From: an uncultured Bacillota bacterium
GTDB taxonomy: Bacteria; Sysuimicrobiota; Sysuimicrobiia; Sysuimicrobiales; Segetimicrobiaceae
DNA: 64,000 bases
NCBI GenBank assembly: GCA_963804645.1
Contig: CAWDRG010000006.1
Coordinates: 32,001-96,000, forward strand
Direction: 5' to 3'
The notes under the pieces were generated by a model. The model worked only from the letters and a program-made list of their open reading frames with translations, was not told where the DNA came from and made no database searches. Shown here in pieces: positions 35,660 to 64,000 of this stretch (its first letter is position 1; each line of letters begins with the position of its first letter). A program made the translations under genes and the position numbers.

Positions 35660-35824
35660 GGCGGCGGCCCGGTGTGCGGGCCCTGGCAAGCCATAAGTAA
35701 GTGTTACCAGGCCGGTCTTCCCCAATTGGCAGGAGCCCAGGGTCAAAAACGGAAATCCTGGCTTGCATGACTATCCTCCACTGTCTTGCAAATGAACTGT
35801 ATCTGGAACTTCTAGGATGAGAAC

Positions 35825-36244
35825 ATGAAAAAGTCGGGCGCGAACCAAGGCCAGTCGGCATCGGAGCTCATCTCGAAAAGAATCGCCGAACTCGGGGACT
35901 GGCGCGGGGAAACCCTCAGCAGAATGCGCAAGCGCATCAAGGAGGCAGACCCGGACGTTGTCGAGGAGTGGAAGTGGATGGGCACTCCGATTTGGTCGCA
36001 CGACGGCATCATCTGCACTGGCGAATCCTACAAGAATGTCGTGAAGCTTACCTTCTCCAAGGGCGCGTCTCTGAAAGATCCGTCCCGTCTCTTCAACTCG
36101 AGTCTCGACGGAAACGCACGCCGCGCGATCGACATCCACGAAGGAGAAGACGTTGACGAGTCCGCCTTCAAGGCGCTCGTTCGCCAAGCGGTCGCCCTCA
36201 ACAGTTCTGGCAAGTCGAAACCTTCGAAGAAAGCGAAGTCGTAA
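35825..36244 (+). CDS. DUF1801 (YdhG-like) protein, cargo of element C
   Basis: [41 protein letters not shown]. Confidence 0.85.
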
Positions 36245-36359
36245 GGGATTCCGCCCCTGAACAGGTCCGACATCGGGGTGGCGGAGGTGTCGTTCCGCCC
36301 GAGCGTACCCAGGTTGAAGATGGCCCCGACGGTCGCAAGGAGCGAATAGTGGGAATACC

Positions 36360-36803
36360 GGTTGAGGAGCGTCCCGGGTTTGGTGCGGCCGTAGAGGCGG
36401 CGGTTGAGATGCCGTTTCTTCTGGCCCAACCGGCGATCGATGGTGCGGGCACTGATGGTGCGGCGGGCCCGTTCCACATGCAGCGGGATGGTGAACCGCC
36501 GCTTCGCCCAGGGGAACCACAGCGGCAGCAGGGCCTTGAGCCGTATCGACCACGGATACCCGGCCGCCTCCCAAATGTGCATGAGGAGCGTCGGGGTCCG
36601 GGGCCCATAGGGCGAGGGGCGCCCCGACCGCCGGCGTGGCGGAGTGGTGCGGGGTGGCCGGGCGAACGCCCGAATGGCAGCCTTGCGATGATACTGCAGG
36701 GTGGCACAGGCATCGGTGCGCAATTGCGACTTCACCGCACGAGACGCGTGCACGTACCGATGCTGCATCGCCTGAAGGTCCTCGCGCTAGCCTTGGGGGT
36801 CAC
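36360..36803 (-). pseudogene. Truncated, frameshifted family 2 transposase (N-terminal part only)
   Basis: [20 protein letters not shown] and [13 protein letters not shown] match elements A and B; catalytic domain missing. Confidence 0.88.
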
Positions 36804-36905
36804 CGGGGTCTCCTGAGTCGCAAGATAGGGGCGTCGCTGGGTAACACAAATTTTGGCGCGACGATCCAATCCCCGGTAACGCTTTACCTGGCTTGATACG
36901 CGGGC

Positions 36906-36934
36906 TTGCCCCGGGCGGACGGGCCTGCTACGCT
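36906..36934 (+). promoter_or_regulatory. Putative coaX promoter
   Basis: TTGCCC, 17 bp, TACGCT with TG extension (TGcTACGCT). Confidence 0.55.
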
Positions 36935-37056: not shown

Positions 37057-37872
37057 ATGCTCCTCGCCGTCGACGTCGGCAACACGCTGATCAAGCTCGC
37101 CCTGTACCGCGGGGAGACGCGCGTGGCGCATTGGTCGATGGCCACCGATCGCGGGCGCACCGCCGACGAATACGCGATGCTCTGGCGGCAGTTCCTCGAG
37201 TTCGGCGGCTACCGGTTCGCGGACGTCTCCGCGGTCGCCGTCGCATGCGTCGTGCCCCAGCTCGCGGAGACGCTGCGGCGGCTGTGCCGCGACTACCTGG
37301 GCCAGACGCCGCTTGAAGTCGGGCCCGGAATCCGCACCGGGATGCGCATTCTGTACGACAACCCACGGGAAGTCGGCGCCGACCGCATCGCCAACGCGGT
37401 CGCGGCGTACGCCCGCTACGGCGGGCCCGTGATCGTCGTGGCGCTCGGCACCGCGACGGTCTTCACCGTCGTCTCGAAGGACGGGGAGTTCCTGGGGGGT
37501 GCCATCGCGCCGGGCATCGGGATCTCGGTCGAGGCGCTCGTGCAGCACGCCGCGCAGCTGCGCAAGGTCGAGCTCGTCCGTCCGAGCCAGGTGATCGCCC
37601 GCAACACGGTGGCCGCGATGCAGTCCGGCGTGCTGTACGGCGTCATCGGGCAGATCGAAGGCATCATCGCGCGGATGCGCGCGGAGCTGGGCGCGCCGGC
37701 GGCGGTGGTGGCGACGGGGGGCTACGCGGAGCTGGTCGGTGCGGCGTGCCGCTGCGTCGACCACGTGGACCCGCTCCTGTCGCTCGAGGGGCTGCGCCTC
37801 CTCCACGATCGTAACAGCGTGGCGCCGGGCGCAGGAGAGGCCCGCACGGAGGTCCAAGACACGGCGAGATGA
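37057..37872 (+). CDS. coaX: Type III pantothenate kinase
   Basis: LLAVDVGNT, EVGADRIAN, GGAIAPG, VVATGG; GGAGG RBS. Confidence 0.95.
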   Translation: MLLAVDVGNTLIKLALYRGETRVAHWSMATDRGRTADEYAMLWRQFLEFGGYRFADVSAVAVACVVPQLAETLRRLCRDYLGQTPLEVGPGIRTGMRILYDNPREVGADRIANAVAAYARYGGPVIVVALGTATVFTVVSKDGEFLGGAIAPGIGISVEALVQHAAQLRKVELVRPSQVIARNTVAAMQSGVLYGVIGQIEGIIARMRAELGAPAAVVATGGYAELVGAACRCVDHVDPLLSLEGLRLLHDRNSVAPGAGEARTEVQDTAR

Positions 37873-55594: not shown

Positions 55595-55671
55595 GCCCTC
55601 GTAGCTCAATTCGGCAGAGCACCTCACTTGTAATGAGGTGGTTACCGGTTCAAGTCCGGTCGAGGGCTCCA
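55595..55671 (+). tRNA. tRNA-Thr(TGT)
   Basis: Acceptor GCCCTCG/CGAGGGC, anticodon arm CCTCA-CTTGTAA-TGAGG, GGTTCAA, encoded CCA. Confidence 0.96.
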
Positions 55672-55979
55672 GTCACGTCCTCCAGGCTGCAGCCGAGTGC
55701 GCCGATGCAGGCTGTCGCGGGCTGCGGCACGTTCGTGGAGCCGGAGCCAGTAGGACCCGACGTGCTAGGGACGGACGTTGACCGTGACACGCCTCGGGCG
55801 CGTGGTGCACGTCGTGGCGACCCAAAGGCTCAGCATCGCGCGCGGTCGTCGCGACCGTGGTACGCAGGTAGTGAGAGACGTGACCGTTGCCGTGTCGGCG
55901 CTCACAAACGATGACGAGTTGTGCGCGCTGCGCGGCCGGATCAGCCGGCCGCGCAGCGAGATCGAAGGAGACGGTCAAC

Positions 55980-58900
55980 ATGGCGTTCGTGGCCTGGCAC
56001 AACCAAACCCTGACCGACCACCTCGGCCTTACGAAGCAATACGAGGCCCAGGGTTACGGCTTCATCTCGCTGAGCGTCTATGGATCAACATCGTCGCCGT
56101 ACTATGCCGCCGTGATGGTGCAACCATCGCCGGCCGCGCAGCATCACTATCCCGCCGTACCGGTGAATCAGTGGCAGCAGCTGTTCAATCAGGAAGCCGG
56201 ACAAGGCTATGGGCCGACGATGGTCGCCGCCACCGGCTCGGCGGTGAGCCCACTGTACGCTGCAGTCTTCGAACCGCAAGACCCAATTCCGCTGACGATC
56301 AACGGCATCGGCCTGCCCATCCAAGGCTGGCAGGCGCAGACACTCAACAACAACGGAAAGACCGGCGGCCCGTCCGCCGCGGGCGGCCTCTTCGTCAGCG
56401 TCTACAACGATCAGCAGCACTTTGCGTATCTCGACGGGAGCGGCAACATCCAGGATGCGTGGTACAGCGGCGACGAGTGGCAGCTCCAGCAGATCAATAA
56501 CGGCGGAAAGACCAAAGGGCCGGCCGCTGCCGGCAGTCTCTTCGTCAGCGTCTACAACAATCAGCAGCATTTCACCTACGTCGATACCGGGGGCAACATT
56601 CACGACGCCTGGTACGGTAACGGCGGCTGGCAGATCCAGCAGCTCAACAACGGCGGAACGGTCGATGGCCCGGCCGCCGTCGGCGGTCTCTTCGTCAGCG
56701 TCTACAACGACCAGCAACACTTCACCTATCTCGACGGCCTCGGCAACATCCAGGACGCCTGGTACGGCAACGACGGCTGGCACACCCAGCGGCTCAACAA
56801 CGGCCACGGCGGACAAACCGACGGCCCGGACGCGGTCGGCGGCCTCTTCGTCAGCGTCTACAATGATCAGCAGCACTTCACTTACCTCGATGACGGCGAT
56901 AACCTCCAGGACATTTGGTATGGCAGCGACGGCTGGCACGTCCAGCGGCTTAACAACGGCCACGGCGGCAAGACCGACGGCCCGGCCGCGGCCGGCGGTC
57001 CGTTCGTCAGTGTCTACAACGACCAGCAGCACTTTGCGTATCTCGACGGACTCGGTAACCTCCAGGACATCTGGTACGGCAACGACGGCTGGCACGTCCA
57101 GCAGCTCAACAACGGGCACGGCGGCAAGACCGACGGCCCGGCCGCGGTCGGCGGCCCGTTCGTCTGCGTGTATGACGATCAGCAGCACTTCGCCTACCTC
57201 GACGGCCAGGGCAACCTCCAGGACGCCTGGTACGGTAACGGAGGCTGGCACGTCCAGCAGCTCAACAACGGCCACGGCGGCAAGACCGACGCCCCGGCCG
57301 CGGTCGGCGGCCCATTCGTCTGCGTGTATGGCGATCAGCAGCACTTCGCCTACCTCGACGGCGGCGGTAACGTCCAGGACGTCTGGTACAGCACGTACGT
57401 CCAGACCCTTGCGGTACTGAATGCGCTGGCGAAGAGCCAGGGGCTGATCCTGCGGTGGGCCGCGTCGTATGGTGATTCGATGGGTCGGGCCTTTGTCGCG
57501 ATCTGGATCCCCAATTCCGGCCAGACACTTTGGAATAACGACGGGGTCTCCGATAGCGCCAGCGGCTATCAGGCCCGCTTTGACGCGGAGGCCTCCGGGT
57601 GGTGCCGACCCGCGTTCGTCACCCTGAATACGAATTTGGAATATCTCTCAATCTTCGTGGATAACCAGATCGGTCCGTTGTGGGCGAACCACGAACTGAC
57701 ATCGGCCCAGTACCAGTCCGCGTCCGACACGTTGGTGCAACAAGGCTTTTTCCCCATCTGCGTACAGGCCGCCGGACCGGATCCGGATTTCGCGACGTTT
57801 TCCGCGATCTTCGCGAAGAGCCAGCAGGTCGTCGGGAAGCAGTTCAGCGCGACGGGGCCGGTGGCCAATGCCCAGATCGACGCGGTCATCGCACCGTTGA
57901 TGCAGACCTATGGCGTACGTCATGCCGCACTGGCCATCGTGCACGACCGGCAGCTCGTGTATGCGCGGGCGTACACGCTGGCCGAGCCCGACTGGCCGGT
58001 CGCGCAGCCGACCACCTGCTTCCGCCTGGCGAGCGTGTCCAAGGTGCCGACCGCCGTGGCCATTTATCAACTGATCCAGGCGGGGACGCTCAAGCTGGGG
58101 GACTCGCTCCAGGGCATTCTGCAGCTCACGACACCCTCCGGCGGACCGCCCGTGGATTTACGGTTCAACCAAATTACCATCCAACAGCTGCTCGAACACA
58201 AGAGCGGACTGATTCCCGACGGGCCCACTTCCGGCGCGTTCGATGATGGTGTGGCTGTGGCGAAAGCGTTTCCGACGGCGACGCTGCCCGTGAGCGCCCC
58301 GATGACGGACTCGTACATTGCCAGCCTTCGCCTCCAGAGCAACCCGGGCGCCACGCAAGTGTACAACAACTGCGGCTACTATCTGTTGGCGCGTGTCGTC
58401 GCAAAGCTGCGCGGTCAAAGCCGTCCGATCGACGCGTACCAGCAGTATTTGTTCAATCCGCTGTCGATCACGCGCATCCGCCGCGCGGTGAGCTTGGTCG
58501 CCGACCAGCCGCCGGACGAAGCGCGGTACCAGGACTACGATCTCATCGTGGATGCGAGTCAAATGTCCGAGCCACAACCGCTGGTCCCCGACATGTACGG
58601 CGACCTCCAACTCGAGATCATGGAAGGGTCGGGCGGGCTGACCGGGGCCGTTCCCGACGTGGCGCGGCTGATCGCGATCCTCATTTCGCAGCAGGACAAT
58701 CCCGCCAGCACGCGGGCGACGCTGGTGAATATGCTGTCGGCTGGAGCGGCGCTGAGCACCGCTGGCTTCGCGCGCGCGGGGTATGGGTTTGACTTCGTCA
58801 GCAGCTTGGGCGGCGGCCAGTTCGACGCCCAGAAAGGCGGCTTGTGGGACAGCTCGTCCAGCATCCTATCACTCAACGGGGAGTGGGGATTTACGATGCT

Positions 58901-59036
58901 GTGGGGTAGTGGACGGCCTGGTCAACTCCCGAACCAGCCGTGGGCGTCAAATTTCCCCGCGGTCATGAACATCGCTACGAGTACCAACTGGGGCTCCGAC
59001 GATCTCTTCCCGCAATTCGGCATGCCGTCGCTGTGA
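55980..59036 (+). CDS. Serine hydrolase (beta-lactamase family) with tandem-repeat domains and an inserted 7-repeat propeller
   Basis: AAGGAG RBS; FRLASVSK (SxxK), LLEHKSG, YNN; seven 50-52 aa repeats. Confidence 0.85.
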   Translation: MAFVAWHNQTLTDHLGLTKQYEAQGYGFISLSVYGSTSSPYYAAVMVQPSPAAQHHYPAVPVNQWQQLFNQEAGQGYGPTMVAATGSAVSPLYAAVFEPQDPIPLTINGIGLPIQGWQAQTLNNNGKTGGPSAAGGLFVSVYNDQQHFAYLDGSGNIQDAWYSGDEWQLQQINNGGKTKGPAAAGSLFVSVYNNQQHFTYVDTGGNIHDAWYGNGGWQIQQLNNGGTVDGPAAVGGLFVSVYNDQQHFTYLDGLGNIQDAWYGNDGWHTQRLNNGHGGQTDGPDAVGGLFVSVYNDQQHFTYLDDGDNLQDIWYGSDGWHVQRLNNGHGGKTDGPAAAGGPFVSVYNDQQHFAYLDGLGNLQDIWYGNDGWHVQQLNNGHGGKTDGPAAVGGPFVCVYDDQQHFAYLDGQGNLQDAWYGNGGWHVQQLNNGHGGKTDAPAAVGGPFVCVYGDQQHFAYLDGGGNVQDVWYSTYVQTLAVLNALAKSQGLILRWAASYGDSMGRAFVAIWIPNSGQTLWNNDGVSDSASGYQARFDAEASGWCRPAFVTLNTNLEYLSIFVDNQIGPLWANHELTSAQYQSASDTLVQQGFFPICVQAAGPDPDFATFSAIFAKSQQVVGKQFSATGPVANAQIDAVIAPLMQTYGVRHAALAIVHDRQLVYARAYTLAEPDWPVAQPTTCFRLASVSKVPTAVAIYQLIQAGTLKLGDSLQGILQLTTPSGGPPVDLRFNQITIQQLLEHKSGLIPDGPTSGAFDDGVAVAKAFPTATLPVSAPMTDSYIASLRLQSNPGATQVYNNCGYYLLARVVAKLRGQSRPIDAYQQYLFNPLSITRIRRAVSLVADQPPDEARYQDYDLIVDASQMSEPQPLVPDMYGDLQLEIMEGSGGLTGAVPDVARLIAILISQQDNPASTRATLVNMLSAGAALSTAGFARAGYGFDFVSSLGGGQFDAQKGGLWDSSSSILSLNGEWGFTMLWGSGRPGQLPNQPWASNFPAVMNIATSTNWGSDDLFPQFGMPSL
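56328..57392 (+). repeat. Seven intragenic tandem repeats of 150-156 bp
   Basis: Unit W.xQ.LNNG..KTDGP.A.GG.FV.VY.DQQHF.YLDG.GN.QD.WY. Confidence 0.95.
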
Positions 59037-59109
59037 CGGCGGCGCGGCCCGTGGGCGCGGCGCGCCGTTCCGCAAGGCGCGCTGATAGACTCCCGATGGC
59101 TCGCCGTGG

Positions 59110-59187
59110 ACCCTCGCAGCCTAGTTCGACCGGACATCTCACTTGTAATGAGGGTGGTTACCGGTTCAAGTCCGGTCGAGGGCTCCA
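59110..59187 (+). repeat. Degenerate full-length tRNA-Thr copy (att-like repeat 1)
   Basis: 3' part 59138-59187 identical to the tRNA except one inserted G; 5' part matches 18/28. Confidence 0.88.
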
Positions 59188-59480
59188 GATTTTGCTAGGG
59201 GTTGCGGTCGTCTGCGTGATCATCGGGGAGATACTGCGCGCGCGAGTCGCCGACGGTCGTGATTTTGAGAAGGACCGCATGCGCGAGCGGCAGATACACT
59301 CGCCGGCGGTCGAGTTCGACAGGCGCGGCGGCCTCAAGGGAGACGAAGACGAGGGCCGCTGAACGGTGAGCGGCGGAGCGGAAACCACTCGCCAGAACGA
59401 CCGCATCGCGCAGGTGGGCGTGCACACGCCCAGGAACTGGGCAGAACCAGCGCTCACGGCTCGACATGGAGGAGACGGCC

Positions 59481-60743
59481 ATGAAGCGACGCGTGTTCGC
59501 GCTCGTCCTCGGCATCCTCGTCGCAGGGTTGCTGGCGGGACCCAGGCCCGCGACGGGAGACACCGCCGACGCTGGCTTGGTGCTCGCGGCGTTGAACGTC
59601 TTGGAGCAGCGGTACGCGAAGCCCGTCCAGCCGGTGGCGTTGTTAAACGCCGCAATTGAATCTCTTGGACAAGCGGGCAATGTGGACCTCACGGCCATTC
59701 CCGATGGTACGCTCGAGGCACAGGCACAGGGGGCGTTCCGCCAAGACTTCGCCAAAGCTGTGCAGACGGGCGCGGCGAAGGAGGAGGACCTCGCCTATCA
59801 AGCCACGCGGGCGATGCTGGCGTCGCTTCATGACAGCCACACCCTCTACATTGATCCGGCGCACTGGGCGGCCCGGCAGGTTCAGGTAGGCGGGAAGCCC
59901 GGTTTTGTCGGCATAGGATTCATCAGCGTGTCCATCAAGGACGACGCAGGCCAGTCCGTGCTGTATGCTGCGGTAGTATTTCCTGGCGCGCCCGCGGCCG
60001 CAGCAGGTCTCTAGGTGCTCGACCAGTTCACCGGAGGCGCGCCTGCCGCAGGCCCCGCCGGATCGACCGTTACATTTACCGTGCAGCGCAAGGGGCAGCC
60101 GGTCACTCTCACGGCGACGAGGCAAGCCATCCAAACGCCTATCGTTGTTGCGGTACCGATGGTCCGTCCCGGGATTGCGTACATTAACTTCCTGGGGTTC
60201 GCCCAGGGTGCCAATGACGCGGTCCGGACCGCGTTGAAGACAGCCCAGGCCCAGGGTCCGCTTCGCGGCGTGATTCTTGACCTGCGACAAAATGGCGGAG
60301 GTCAAATTGACGAGTTGGAGGGCATCGCCGGAGCGCTGCTGCCCCCGCGGACGCTCCTTGCGCATACGGTCAGCCGACAGCAGGGATCGTCTGAGTTTCT
60401 GGTGACCGGGGCACCGCTTCTGCCTCAAACTCCGCTTGTCGTCCTGACGAGTGGGCGCAGCGAGTCAGCCGCTGAAATACTGAGCCTTGCGCTCCACGAC
60501 GCGCATCGAGCGACCCTGATTGGTGAGAAGACGGCCGGTGCGTATCAGAACAACAACGTGGTCCCGCTGCCCGCCGGGGGGATGTCCGTCACCGTGCGTG
60601 AGATCTCCGGCCCTCAATATGAGCAAGTGGAGGGGATCGGGATCACGCCTGACCAGGTAGTCCCGCTGACCGTCGACGACGTGTTGAACGGGACGGATAG
60701 TCAGCTCGATGCGGCGCTCAAAGCACTCGGCGCCGGGAACTAG
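59481..60743 (+). pseudogene. S41 (C-terminal processing) peptidase with in-frame TAG at 60012-60014
   Basis: Signal peptide, MLASLHDSHT, ILDLRQNGGG, SESAAEI, GEKTAG, EGIGITPD; both ORFs in one frame. Confidence 0.85.
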
Positions 60744-60936
60744 GAGATGCGCCCTAAACGGTATCCCTTGCCGGTGGGTAAGCCACGGGAACTTGCGATT
60801 CCTTTGCAATTGCGCGGAGCCGGGATCTGAGGGATTGGGCCGTGGTAGGAAAGGAAGTCGAAGGCGGACAGCCTGTTGAAATAGTGCTCAAAGAAGCTGA
60901 GACGTGCGAAGCATCGAACTGCAAAGGGAGTAGGTT

Positions 60937-62044
<1,108 letters not shown>

Positions 62045-62106
62045 TCAGCTTTGTTGGGTGGCAGATGGAACCCTGGCCAGTGTGACCGACTCAAGACTGC
62101 CAGAAT

Positions 62107-62155
62107 CTCACTGGTAATGAGGTGGTTACCGGTTCAAGTCCGGTCGAGGGCGCCA
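62107..62155 (+). repeat. tRNA-Thr 3' fragment (att-like repeat 3; anticodon reads GGT)
   Basis: 47/49 identical to 55623-55671. Confidence 0.93.
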
Positions 62156-62416
62156 GATCGTACTAGGGGTGCGGTTCTCCCTTCCGCCACGCGGTGCTCG
62201 AGATGGAGGCGATTGGATTCCAACTCGCTCGTGGGGCGTCAGCCCGTCGCTCCCCCGGCGGGCGCGGCGCTCGGCCGTGGCGGGCCATACGCGACGCGTC
62301 TGTCTGCTTGTTCTGGCGACCCTCGTTTCCTGGCGCACGAGGAGAGATCATCGCTGAGCCCGGTGCGACGCAGTCATCTCCCCGCTGTCTCCGTCCCTCG
62401 GGGTGTCCGAGCGATA

Positions 62417-63370
62417 CTAGCGTTCAAGCGAGATCTCCAGCCGGAACGTCGTCGACGTGTCTCCCACGGGGACATTCGGGATGGCGAGCACCAACGTTTT
62501 CGTACCCACGGGTACCGGATCGAACGCGATCTGCCCGGTCTGTGACGACTTGCCGGGGACGGCGTCCGGCAGTTGAGTCTGCATGAACCGCACGTTGTAG
62601 GTGTGGCTCAGGTCATCGGTGAGCGTGGCAGCGGACGCCGCCAGCACGAGGTTGACGGGCGCATCGTTGCTGTTGTCGGCGGTGATTCGCACGGTGGTGT
62701 AGTCCTTCTCGAACGTCACTTCGGATATACGAAGCGTCAGTCCGTTTTCGGACGCTTCGGCGTTTGCCGCGAGGCGCGTTCCCGACTCCTGAGTGGGCAA
62801 CTTCGCCATCGCCGCGACCATGTCGTCGGGGAGGGCGAGCCTCCACACGGCTCCGTCTCTGACGGCCACGAACGTCATGAGATTTTCGGCGACGGCGTGT
62901 CCACCGATCGGCATTGGGGCACAATACGTTGCGGTCGCCAAGCACGCAACGGTGACCAGCGTCGTCAGGATCGAGAATCCGGCGTTTTCTGTGGTCGTTG
63001 TCGTGACGTCTGCGGTGACGACGGCCTGATCCTGTGTCTCATTGTAGGCGGGCTCGCCGATCGTGTAGGTGATCGTTCTGGAGAATCCGACCCGTGTGCC
63101 TTGCGATCCAACCTGTTTCCAGTACGCAATGAATTGATCTGCAGCGACCCGCACCCGCGTGCGGTTGAGCAGATTCTCGTCGTAGAAACTCCGCAGCACG
63201 CCGTCCGCAGGCGGCTGTCCCCTCTCCGCGGGGACGGCGATCGTGTTGAGAAAGAGCGCGACGAGGTCTTGCGGGGCGGCGGTGCCGGACGACGACTGGG
63301 CCGAGCCCGGCGTCGCCAATGACAGACTCAGCACCGTGACAGTTGCCGCGAGCGCTACGAACTTCACCAT
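62417..63370 (-). CDS. Secreted or membrane-anchored protein with C-terminal Ig-like (DUF4352-like) domain
   Basis: GGAGGG RBS, signal peptide MVKFVALAA, C-terminal LTDDL..TY...PG.S..GQIAF. Confidence 0.65.
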   Translation of the reverse strand: MVKFVALAATVTVLSLSLATPGSAQSSSGTAAPQDLVALFLNTIAVPAERGQPPADGVLRSFYDENLLNRTRVRVAADQFIAYWKQVGSQGTRVGFSRTITYTIGEPAYNETQDQAVVTADVTTTTTENAGFSILTTLVTVACLATATYCAPMPIGGHAVAENLMTFVAVRDGAVWRLALPDDMVAAMAKLPTQESGTRLAANAEASENGLTLRISEVTFEKDYTTVRITADNSNDAPVNLVLAASAATLTDDLSHTYNVRFMQTQLPDAVPGKSSQTGQIAFDPVPVGTKTLVLAIPNVPVGDTSTTFRLEISLER

Positions 63371-63907
63371 ATGCCCCCCTCCATTCTGGGTGAACGCGCT
63401 AGTAGACCTGGATCCAGAAGCACAGGATTCGCTCCACGCCGTCCTCAGAGGTGCGATCCCCGACGATGCCCCTTGCGGGGCTGCCACCCGTACTCGCCCA
63501 CAAGACATCTCGCATGGCCACCACACCCCTGGCTCGCGGGCTGACCCGAACCTCGAGTGGGCCCTTGCCCCCGTACGCAGTCTTCCGATCTCCGCATCGC
63601 ATCCGCTCATATCATGCACGACGCGTAGGTTGTCCGAATCGGTCGAAGGGCCCAGGGAACGGGGGTGTGGCGCGGATAAGGGGCTGAAACCAGTCTGGCG
63701 CGCTCGGCTCGCTTTACACGTTCTGAGAAGACTGTCTCCTCAGAAGGCCGAGGCGTGTTGCGCGTTGTGAACTTCAGCGGCGGCACGTCCTCACTCCTGG
63801 TGTCCATCGTGCCGCAGGACTCGTTACGGCAGCCCCAAAGATACGTTCGCAGGTCATCAGCGGTTACTCGCGAACCCGCAAATGGCATAGGCTAGTGAGC
63901 GTGCCGC

Positions 63908-63956
63908 CCCACTTGTAATGAGGGGGTTACCGGTTCAAGTCCGGCCGAGGGCTCCA
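63908..63956 (+). repeat. tRNA-Thr 3' fragment (att-like repeat 4)
   Basis: 46/49 identical to 55623-55671. Confidence 0.93.
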
Positions 63957-64000
63957 GATTTTGCGTGGGTTGGGGTTAGTTCGGTCCCCTCGTTCGTTGT

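What the first reader, a model, noticed from the sequence alone, without database searches (positions are those of the whole stretch)
35677..36934. Family 2 IS: 5-bp target duplication directly abuts the -35 hexamer at both sites
Seen: element B ends GATTCG-ATGTA-TTGACA-17-TACAGT (rrn P1). Element C ends GATACG-CGGGC-TTGCCC-17-TACGCT with a TG extension (upstream of coaX). The transposase points away from the promoter in both. Ends carry repeated ~22-bp motifs and make 5-bp TSDs, an architecture that recalls Tn7/Mu/IS21/IS1202-type elements, but no separate target-selector gene is present. The second promoter is a weaker match, so that site is less certain.
Basis: partly seen in the sequence, partly recalled or inferred. 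Interest (0 to 1): 0.85.

Follow-up and report, generated by a model that had tools for sequence, protein, structure and literature searches.

The report
Jumping genes that land beside promoters
A widespread family of small bacterial jumping genes inserts, always in the same orientation, exactly at the upstream edge of ordinary gene promoters, which gives a second, simpler system for asking how a transposon can find the cell's transcription start signals.

Summary
Element C (window 35682-36900) and the tandem pair A/B (13264-16119) are copies of a 1.4-kb single-gene IS. Each makes a 5-bp target duplication that touches a -35-like hexamer, with the transposase 5' end facing the promoter.

- **Other copies:** 6 of 7 further sites in this genome follow the rule.
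- **Wider survey:** across 77 independent sites in several phyla, T/T/G occupy +6/+7/+8 in 65/51/58 sites. Exact TTG occurs in 43 of 77 (background 1.5%).
- **-10 box:** a TAnnnT box lies 16-18 bp on in 60 of 77 (background 1.3%), including 24 of 34 sites without TTG. The opposite flank shows 0 of 76 and 1 of 76.
- **Empty sites:** a same-genus genome has both window sites empty, with the promoters intact.
- **Downstream genes:** targets include rRNA and tRNA genes.

So the target is a whole sigma-70-type promoter, not just TTG.

The most likely mechanism is docking on promoter-bound RNA polymerase, which is inferred, not shown. Direct DNA read-out is the main rival.

Promoter targeting is already known for Mutator-type elements (TnGBS, ISLre2, ISKra4), which land 15-17 bp upstream. 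This family has an rve-type transposase, is not IS1202 or IS481 by sequence, and its alphaproteobacterial 'ISNCY' sister clade does not target promoters.

The parts
13259..13263 (.). Leftmost copy of the 5-bp target duplication ATGTA (left of element A)
   Evidence: ATGTA occurs three times: at 13259, 14686 and 16120.
13264..14685 (-). Element A, an intact 1422-bp IS (type A)
   Evidence: Four more copies at 99.8-100% identity lie elsewhere in the genome, each with its own 5-bp duplication.
13313..14659 (-). Transposase ORF of A. It is 448 aa from the first ATG; the conserved start is probably the GTG at 14587, giving 424 aa.
   Evidence: Pfam rve 24 bits (below the cut-off of 32.6) and NCBIfam IS481 44 bits (cut-off 224); invariant D191, D252 and E288. 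The start codon is my own reading.
14686..14690 (.). Middle ATGTA copy between A and B
   Evidence: It is the signature of two successive insertions at the same position.
14691..16119 (-). Element B, an intact 1429-bp IS (type B, about 70% nucleotide identity to A)
   Evidence: a 100% identical copy lies at C19:125419-126847..
14740..16023 (-). Transposase of B, taken from the conserved GTG start. The listed ORF runs on to 16131, outside the element.
   Evidence: The start is my own reading.
16120..16124 (.). Right ATGTA copy, abutting the -35 box
16125..16153 (+). rrn P1 promoter: TTGACA (16125-16130), 17-nt spacer, TACAGT (16148-16153)
   Evidence: The empty orthologous site in G004 carries the same promoter. 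RNA-library contigs cover 16177-16517.
35677..35681 (.). Left CGGGC copy of element C's target duplication
   Evidence: The empty site in G004 has one CGGGC.
35682..36900 (-). Element C, a 1219-bp defective derivative of a D-type element. Both tips are kept; the catalytic part of the transposase is replaced.
   Evidence: 87% identity to the C5 element over C positions 681-1211..
35825..36244 (+). Passenger ORF, DUF1801 domain, 139 aa
   Evidence: PF08818, 77 bits; the same gene at 90-92% nucleotide identity sits in two genomes of another genus without IS ends.
36355..36900 (-). Transposase N-terminal remnant (matches residues 5-185 of the B query, one TAG inside), overlapping element C's right end with its two repeats
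   Evidence: C6:68355-68900..
36901..36905 (.). Right CGGGC copy, abutting the -35 box
36906..36934 (+). coaX promoter: TTGCCC, 17-nt spacer with a TGn extension, TACGCT
   Evidence: The boxes are conserved in G004, G002 and G011.
37057..37872 (+). Downstream gene, coaX-like. It is context, not part of the element.
   Evidence: The name rests on my own recognition of the N-terminal sequence, not on a family search.

Best explanation
Elements A, B and C belong to a clade of ~1.42-1.49-kb insertion sequences. Each has one rve-type DDE transposase of about 425 aa and two ~25-bp transposase-binding repeats at each end.

They insert orientation-specifically at the upstream edge of sigma-70 (sigma-A) type promoters. 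The 5-bp staggered cut falls in the five base pairs just upstream of the -35 hexamer. The duplication therefore touches the hexamer, and the transposase-proximal end faces the promoter. I rate this targeting as about 95% certain.

The most likely way the site is found is that the transposase-DNA complex docks on a promoter already occupied by RNA polymerase holoenzyme. Contact would be with sigma region 4 or the neighbouring alpha C-terminal domain, plus the bent DNA at the -35 edge. The polymerase would act as the target selector, as TFIIIB does for Ty3 and as proposed for TnGBS. This step is inferred.

Movement is probably copy-out/paste-in through a circle. The left tip carries an outward TTGAC, and the right end carries an inward TAnnnT 14 nt from its tip. 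Abutted ends would therefore form a promoter for the transposase. This too is inferred.
For: **Targeting**
- Own genome: 7 of 8 sites have a -35-like hexamer right after the duplication, with a -10-like box 17-18 bp on.
- 77 unique sites (69 of 80 loci from other genomes, plus those 8):
  - T at +6 in 65, T at +7 in 51, G at +8 in 58.
  - T at +29 in 50, A at +30 in 51, T at +34 in 46.
  - Exact TTG in 43 of 77; TAnnnT at a 16-18 spacer in 60 of 77.
  - Left-flank control: 0 of 76 and 1 of 76.
  - Random flank positions: 1.5% and 1.3%.
- No two flanks are more than 51% alike.
- A perfect 5-bp duplication was called automatically in 36 of 69 loci.

**The promoters are real**
- Downstream features include 16S rRNA, and tRNA genes starting at +41, +46, +50 and +60.
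- The longest open frame faces away from the IS in 44 of 58 sites.
- Both window sites are empty in G004, with the promoters kept.
- A TGn extension is present in 21 of 63 sites that have a -10.

**Polymerase rather than plain sequence**
- 24 of the 34 sites without TTG still carry TAnnnT at the right distance (P about 3e-38).
- TTG stays at +6 while the -10 moves between +29, +30 and +31 (42, 17 and 8 occurrences).
- The duplicated 5 bp carry no information.

**Repeated hits on one promoter**
- The A-B tandem shares one duplication.
- An ~85-bp relic with its own duplication sits at the orthologous rrn P1 of G002.
- Two further tandems were found.

**Split promoter**
- Of 37 end-pair types, 31 have the outward TTGAC and 29 the inward TAnnnT.
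- 24 have both, with a spacer of 16+n.
- Only 2 of 37 have a TAnnnT at the matching place in the left end.
Against: - No direct evidence of a transposase-polymerase contact exists.
- 17 of 77 sites lack the -10 pattern and 34 of 77 lack exact TTG. Some of these are miscalled ends (L061, L066), a tandem (L085) or sites in other mobile DNA.
- One own-genome copy (C19:125419-126847) sits between tips of another element with no recognisable promoter.
- 33 of 69 loci had no perfect automatic duplication call.
- The crude frame test pointed the other way in 14 of 58 sites.
- TGn extensions are no commoner at sites without TTG (9 of 25 against 12 of 38, P 0.46). That expected signature of weak -35 promoters is therefore absent.
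- The left tip of the element itself contains TTGAC, so the transposase may read such a sequence directly.
- Survivorship could enrich real promoters among old insertions.
- No transcription start site has been mapped at any site.
Confidence: 0.55

Rival explanations
1. Direct DNA read-out. The transposase itself recognises the -35-like sequence, and perhaps the -10, on naked DNA. One route would be the same helix-turn-helix that binds its own ends, since the left tip reads CTTGAC on the other strand. The -10 boxes would be over-represented because TTGAC-type hexamers that survive in intergenic DNA are mostly real promoters.
For: - The left tip contains TTGAC in 31 of 37 end types.
- T/T/G at +6..+8 are the most informative flank positions.
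- IS911 and IS30 are known to target sequences resembling their own ends (recalled, not checked here).
Against: - 24 of 34 sites without TTG still have TAnnnT at the right distance.
- The conserved letters are exactly those read by sigma (TTG, TAnnnT) and nothing else.
- Positions +1..+5 show no likeness to the GGC that precedes TTGAC in the end motif.
- The other three binding repeats of the element do not contain TTGAC.
Confidence: 0.25
2. Insertion is not targeted. It lands more or less at random, and selection keeps only copies in harmless places upstream of promoters.
For: Intergenic survivorship is a general feature of IS elements (established knowledge).
Against: - Selection cannot give single-base precision: TTG at +6 in 43 sites against 4 at +5 and none at +7.
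- Selection cannot give one fixed orientation: the left-flank control shows 0 of 76.
- Selection cannot explain repeated hits on the same five base pairs.
Confidence: 0.03
3. The promoter is part of the element. On this view the element is a mobile promoter whose true end lies beyond the -10 box, so nothing is targeted.
For: The promoter-like motif always accompanies the right end.
Against: - The empty sites in G004 carry the same promoters, one copy of the 5 bp and no IS.
- Spacers and downstream DNA differ at every site.
- The duplications bracket the element inside the promoter.
Confidence: 0.02

Closest known systems
TnGBS conjugative elements, the ISLre2 family and the ISKra4 group. [quoted passage not shown] 2014, PMC3942029; passages read).
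   Same: They insert upstream of sigma-A promoters at a fixed distance and mostly in one orientation, with one particular end next to the promoter. There is no separate selector protein. Asymmetry of the two ends is thought to set the orientation, and contact with the polymerase initiation complex was proposed by analogy with Ty3.
   Different: - The transposase superfamily differs: Mutator/IS256-like there, rve (retroviral-integrase-like) here.
- They land 15-17 bp upstream of the -35. Here the element end is 5 bp away and the duplication touches the hexamer.
- The duplication length differs.
- Their hosts are mainly Firmicutes. Here they are mainly Acidobacteriota and other soil phyla.
IS1202 family, ISAjo2/ISAba32 subgroup, the dif-site hunters (Harmer et al. 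2023, PMC10132070: abstract and sections 11 and 17 read. Siguier et al. 2022 preprint, 10.1101/2022.12.17.520857: abstract and sections 7 and 8 read).
   Same: - About 1.5 kb with one transposase of about 450 aa.
- 5-bp duplication.
- A second internal copy of the binding site near each end.
- The transposase-proximal end lies 5 bp from a protein-binding site, in a fixed orientation.
- No selector gene; the transposase was proposed to contact the bound protein (XerC).
- Domain order: HTH, RNaseH fold, beta element, C-terminal helices.
   Different: - The target is a dif-like XerC/D site, not a promoter.
- Termini are TGT...ACA, against C(C/G)YGTC...GAT(A/T)CG here.
- There is no detectable sequence relation: hhalign of the family profile against the ISAba32 transposase gave probability 1%.
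- At E+7 they have Q; here it is V with R at +8.
Alphaproteobacterial elements whose transposase NCBI names 'ISNCY family transposase', for example the one on Mesorhizobium japonicum pMLa, 504 aa
   Same: They are the closest named relatives by sequence: 41% identity over 386 columns, hhalign E about 1e-61. Domain order is the same.
   Different: - About 1.77 kb, with a longer C-terminal tail.
- Ends of the ...GATTGTCGCGCTACA type.
- 0 of 33 unique flanks hold a TTG-N16-18-TAnnnT motif within 65 nt, against 43 of 77 here. They therefore do not appear to target promoters.
- The invariant [11 protein letters not shown] linker of the window clade is not conserved in them.
IS481 and IS3 families
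   Same: They share the rve catalytic core, and they are the only NCBIfam hits. Junction promoters on circles are typical of the copy-out/paste-in families (established knowledge).
   Different: The score is far below the family cut-off (44 against 224 bits). The termini are not TGT...ACA, the protein is larger with extra C-terminal domains, and each end has two binding sites.
Ty3 retrotransposon of yeast, and Tn7 with TnsD
   Same: The principle is the same: the integration machinery is guided by a DNA-bound host protein to a safe place just outside a gene.
   Different: Ty3 is a eukaryotic retroelement that uses TFIIIB at Pol III genes. Tn7 needs separate TnsC and TnsD proteins and has a single attachment site.

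Membership tests
IS1202 family (ISAjo2/ISAba32 subgroup) | Transposase related in sequence to IS1202-family transposases | tested here: not met
   the profile of 40 family members against the ISAba32 transposase (pD36-4) gave probability 1%, with only 23 columns aligned.
IS1202 family (ISAjo2/ISAba32 subgroup) | Outer ends 5'-TGT ... ACA-3' | tested here: not met
   left ends read C(C/G)YGTCAAGCC and right ends ...GGCGCGAT(A/T)CG.
IS1202 family (ISAjo2/ISAba32 subgroup) | 5-bp target duplication and a second internal binding-site copy at each end | tested here: met
IS1202 family (ISAjo2/ISAba32 subgroup) | Target is a dif-like XerC/XerD site 5 bp from the transposase-proximal end | tested here: not met
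   the flank logo is TTG...TAnnnT, a promoter. The geometry (5 bp, same end, one orientation) is the same.
IS1202 family (ISAjo2/ISAba32 subgroup) | Q seven residues after the catalytic E | tested here: not met
   E288 is followed by QKNWTHVR, so +7 is V295 (invariant) and +8 is R296.
IS481 family | Reaches NCBIfam's IS481 model cut-off | tested here: not met
   43.9 and 44.6 bits against a cut-off of 224.
Promoter-targeting Mutator-like elements (TnGBS / ISLre2 / ISKra4) | Mutator/IS256-type transposase | tested here: not met
   the only Pfam hit is rve; the best structural matches are IstA, retroviral intasomes, CAST TnsB and MuA.
Promoter-targeting Mutator-like elements (TnGBS / ISLre2 / ISKra4) | Insertion 15-17 bp upstream of the -35 box | tested here: not met
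   the hexamer begins at +6 from the element end.
Promoter-targeting Mutator-like elements (TnGBS / ISLre2 / ISKra4) | Oriented insertion upstream of sigma-A promoters | tested here: met
   60 of 77 against 1 of 76 on the other flank.
'ISNCY' relatives of Alphaproteobacteria (an NCBI product name, not a defined family) | Clear sequence homology of the transposase | tested here: met
   probability 100%, 41% identity. Which ISfinder group these belong to could not be looked up.
Sigma-70-type promoter (the target) | -35 TTGnnn, 17+/-1 spacer, -10 TAnnnT, with the gene downstream in the same direction | tested here: met
Sigma-70-type promoter (the target) | Mapped transcription start 6-8 nt after the -10 box | tested here: inconclusive
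   RNA-library contigs of four runs from one study cover 16177-16517, upstream of P2. Contigs cannot show a start. The tRNA genes beginning at +41 to +60 fit.

The most novel reading that the evidence does not exclude
RNA polymerase holoenzyme sitting on a promoter is the target selector of a one-protein rve-type IS. This would be a second, independent invention of polymerase-guided transposition in bacteria.

The cut would fall right at the edge of sigma region 4. It might be mediated by the invariant, predicted-disordered [11 protein letters not shown] linker that the non-targeting sister clade lacks.

The thousands of natural copies would then be a ready-made map of active promoters in uncultured soil phyla.
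Probability: 0.5. Interest if true: 0.8.

Novelty: new variant of a known kind. Interest (0 to 1): 0.7.

Why it matters
Bacterial transposons that find promoters have been known since TnGBS, but how they do it is unsolved, and the known cases all belong to one transposase superfamily. Here an unrelated type of transposase shows the same habit.

- **A simpler system.** The geometry is sharper: the cut touches the -35 box. The element is tiny, with one protein. A close sister clade lacks the habit, which gives a natural comparison for finding the responsible part of the protein.
- **A testable hypothesis.** The proposed transposase-polymerase contact can be tested directly.
- **A promoter map.** The family is abundant: 504 loci were confirmed in one scan, and 7992 of the 8000 protein clusters scored were related. 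Its flanks therefore mark real promoters in Acidobacteriota and other poorly studied phyla.
- **A strong promoter tolerates it.** Even the P1 promoter of the only assembled rRNA operon carries two such insertions at its upstream edge.

Tried and rejected
- **Complex prediction.** The transposase (alignment A1) was folded with sigma-A region 4 of this genome. The result was 'no answer' (score 0.00). It counts neither for nor against binding.
- **RNA contigs.** No contig covers 15900-16176, which holds the IS end and P1. As a gap in contigs of one study, this is not used as evidence for a start at P1.
- **TGn extension.** I tested whether TGn is commoner at sites without TTG. It is not: 9 of 25 against 12 of 38, P 0.46.
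- **Divergent element at C15:383361-384497 (39% identity).** It has TTGCGC-18-TACGCT close to a plausible right tip. I could not fix its left end or its duplication, so it is not counted.
- **Rhizobial plasmid copies.** Few flanks were independent and no duplications were seen. They were replaced by the wider scan.
- **Fetching an IS1202-family record by accession.** CP010351, CP058810 and CP012956 are not in the collection. NZ_CP012956 worked after a coordinate slip.
- **Solved structures by sequence.** Only weak matches to retroviral integrase cores were found.
- **Transposase promoter from target DNA.** I asked whether a transposase promoter forms from the right end plus the target DNA. The -35 position would read TCAANN (my reading), so I rejected it.
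- **Literature.** In eight answered searches (and passages of PMC9208149) I found no description of promoter targeting by an rve-type or ISNCY-type element. ISfinder itself could not be consulted.

Full report
**What is in the window.** Three related elements are present.

- A (13264-14685) and B (14691-16119) lie head to tail on the minus strand. ATGTA stands before A, between A and B, and after B.
- Directly after the last ATGTA come TTGACA, 17 nt and TACAGT, about 335 bp upstream of the 16S rRNA gene.
- C (35682-36900) is flanked by CGGGC on both sides. TTGCCC, 17 nt (with TG two bases before the -10) and TACGCT follow, upstream of a coaX-like gene.
- A and B each hold one reading frame. 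It gives a weak Pfam rve match and a weak NCBIfam IS481 match, far under the cut-off.
- C is defective. It keeps both tips and the first ~180 codons of the transposase (one stop inside). The rest is replaced by a lower-GC DUF1801 gene on the other strand.
- That DUF1801 gene occurs at 90-92% nucleotide identity in two genomes of another genus without IS ends. C is therefore a chimeric, non-autonomous derivative. Because it is bracketed by a clean duplication, it most simply moved as a unit.

**Other copies in the same genome.** The assembly holds four more type-A copies, one more type-B copy, a truncated B, a full-length relative of C on contig 5, and more distant relics. In the orientation of the window, the DNA after the right end reads as follows:

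| Duplication | -35-like hexamer | What follows |
|---|---|---|
| TTTCA | TTGACA | 18 nt, then TAAGGT, then a tRNA-His gene from +50 |
| ATCGG | TTGACA | 18 nt, then TAAGGT |
| CCGGA | TTCCCC | 18 nt, then TATAGT, then a GTG-started frame at +42 |
| TGACA | TTGCGG | 18 nt, then TATCGT |
| TATCC | TTGACG | 17 nt, then TAGGCT |

With the two window sites, that makes 7 of 8 sites. The exception is the B copy on contig 19. It lies between tips of another mobile element, beside a 12-nt relic of an A-type right end, and has no recognisable promoter.

**Other genomes.** A scan of one genome per species found 504 loci encoding relatives. The best 80 were fetched (48-78% identity). They come mostly from Acidobacteriota, and also from Chloroflexota, Nitrospirota, Planctomycetota, Elusimicrobiota and others.

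- Copies within one genome gave exact ends.
- A weight matrix of the last and first 24 nt, built from stored sequences, called the ends in the rest.
- Eleven of the 80 loci were dropped. Ten had a right-end score under 20, mostly contigs cut inside the element. One had a flank under 60 nt.
- The remaining 69 plus the 8 own-genome sites give 77 flanks. No two are more than 51% alike beyond the hexamer.

**The flank signal.**

- Positions +1 to +5, the duplication, carry no information.
- +6/+7/+8 are T/T/G in 65/51/58 of 77 sites. +9 is A or C in 64.
- +29/+30/+34 are T/A/T in 50/51/46 sites.
- Exact TTG at +6 occurs in 43 of 77 sites. TAnnnT after a 16-18 spacer occurs in 60 of 77.
- At 200,000 random positions of the same loci the rates are 1.5% and 1.3%.
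- On the other flank of the same elements they are 0 of 76 and 1 of 76.
- TTG starts at +6 in 43 sites, at +5 in 4, and never at +7. The -10 starts at +29, +30 or +31 in 42, 17 and 8 occurrences.
- The insertion point is therefore locked to the -35 position, while the spacer varies as in ordinary promoters.

**These are real promoters.**

- Downstream lie the rRNA operon, tRNA genes beginning at +41, +46, +50 and +60, and protein genes. The longest open frame near the element runs away from it in 44 of 58 sites, a crude measure.
- A TGn extension precedes the -10 in 21 of 63 sites that have one.
- A same-genus genome (G004) has both window sites empty. The coaX site has one CGGGC followed by TTGCCC-17-TACCCT. 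The rrn site has ACGTA followed by TTGACA-17-TACAGT, joined to the same left-hand genes.
- The two coaX boxes are kept in two further genomes, while the spacer differs.
- RNA-library contigs of four runs from one study cover 16177-16517, upstream of the second rrn promoter. This fits use of P1 but cannot show a start.
- The assembly has one rrn operon.

**Repeated hits.** The A-B tandem with one shared duplication is what a second insertion at the same five base pairs gives. It shows that only the promoter side matters. At the orthologous rrn P1 of another same-genus genome (G002), an ~85-bp relic of such an element sits with its own duplication against TTGACA. Two more tandems are in the survey.

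**The element and its transposase.**

- Each end has an outer (1-27) and an inner (about 38-63) copy of one motif. The two outer copies differ at the tip...YGTC on the left...WATC on the right. That asymmetry could set the orientation.
- The AlphaFold model (mean pLDDT 70) shows N-terminal helices (27-154), an RNaseH-type core (187-328), two long strands (331-348) and C-terminal helices (354-403). A low-confidence linker at 157-179 holds the invariant [11 protein letters not shown].
- The best structural matches are IstA of IS21, retroviral intasomes, CAST TnsB and MuA.
- By sequence the family is not IS1202 and does not reach the IS481 model.
- Its nearest named relatives are alphaproteobacterial 'ISNCY family' transposases.
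- In that sister clade the ends are of the TGT...ACA type. None of 33 unique flanks holds a promoter motif, against 43 of 77 here by the same test. Promoter targeting is thus a trait of this clade, and the pipeline does not create the signal.

**How it most likely works.**

- What is shown: the anatomy, the precise and oriented position, and that the targets are promoters.
- What is inferred: how the site is recognised.
- I favour docking on promoter-bound RNA polymerase holoenzyme, for three reasons.
  - The conserved letters are exactly those that sigma reads.
  - The -10 pattern is present in 24 of 34 sites without TTG.
  - Nothing else in the flank is conserved.
- From textbook knowledge, sigma region 4 holds the -35 box and bends the DNA, and the alpha C-terminal domain sits just upstream. 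A 5-bp staggered cut at that edge is where a transposase contacting either would act.
- The main rival is direct read-out by the transposase, whose own left tip contains TTGAC.
- The left tip's outward TTGAC and the right end's inward TAnnnT, 14 nt from the tip, would form a promoter with a spacer of 16+n when the ends abut. This is the hallmark of copy-out/paste-in elements. It holds for 24 of 37 end types, against 2 of 37 for the control position.

**Comparison with what is known.**

- Oriented insertion upstream of sigma-A promoters is published for TnGBS, ISLre2 and ISKra4 elements. These have Mutator-type transposases and land 15-17 bp from the -35.
- The IS1202-family dif hunters share the architecture and the '5 bp from a bound protein' geometry, but not the sequence, termini or target.
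- I found no paper describing this habit for an rve-type element (searches listed under Tried and rejected). ISfinder could not be consulted.
Another note (e1-1522883) led me to the Mutator literature.

**Verdict.** The observation and reading are confirmed. This is a new variant of a known kind of behaviour, with an open mechanism.

Noticed in passing
window 18313-22323: The 23S rRNA gene spans 4011 nt against a model of 2925. It holds a group I intron match at 20365-20613 (68.5 bits). About 1.1 kb of extra sequence is unexplained.
   Followed up: no
window 55595-64000: A tRNA-Thr gene (55595-55671) is followed by four repeats of its 3' part, at about 59141, 60939, 62109 and 63910. This looks like several integrated elements stacked at one tRNA gene.
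   Followed up: no
window 56325-57428: Seven tandem copies of a 150-156-bp unit, 63-83% alike.
   Followed up: no
window 16313-16341: A second rrn promoter-like site (TTGACA, 17 nt, TATAAA) lies between P1 and the 16S gene.
   Followed up: partly
G000 contig 19, 125100-127400: The second type-B copy sits between two tips of another, unidentified element (tip begins TGTCATAGC; only two copies in the genome). Next to it lie a ~150-bp miniature of that element and a 12-nt relic of a type-A right end. It is the only own-genome copy without a promoter beside it.
   Followed up: partly
G000 contig 13, 23561-25489: This type-A copy carries an insertion of about 500 bp some 60 nt from its left end.
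   Followed up: no
L107 (G002), upstream of the rrn leader: An ~85-bp miniature relic of the family, with its own 5-bp duplication, lies against the orthologous rrn P1 -35 box.
   Followed up: partly
G000 contig 9, right of 315298: The frame after the targeted promoter starts with GTG at +42, right where transcription should begin. This suggests a leaderless mRNA.
   Followed up: no
window 35825-36244; L129, L130: The DUF1801 gene inside element C is 90-92% identical in DNA to genes of two genomes of another genus, where it lies without IS ends. This suggests recent horizontal spread.
   Followed up: partly
G000 contig 15, 383000-384900: A relative at 39% protein identity has TTGCGC, 18 nt and TACGCT close to a plausible right tip. 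Its left end and duplication could not be fixed.
   Followed up: partly
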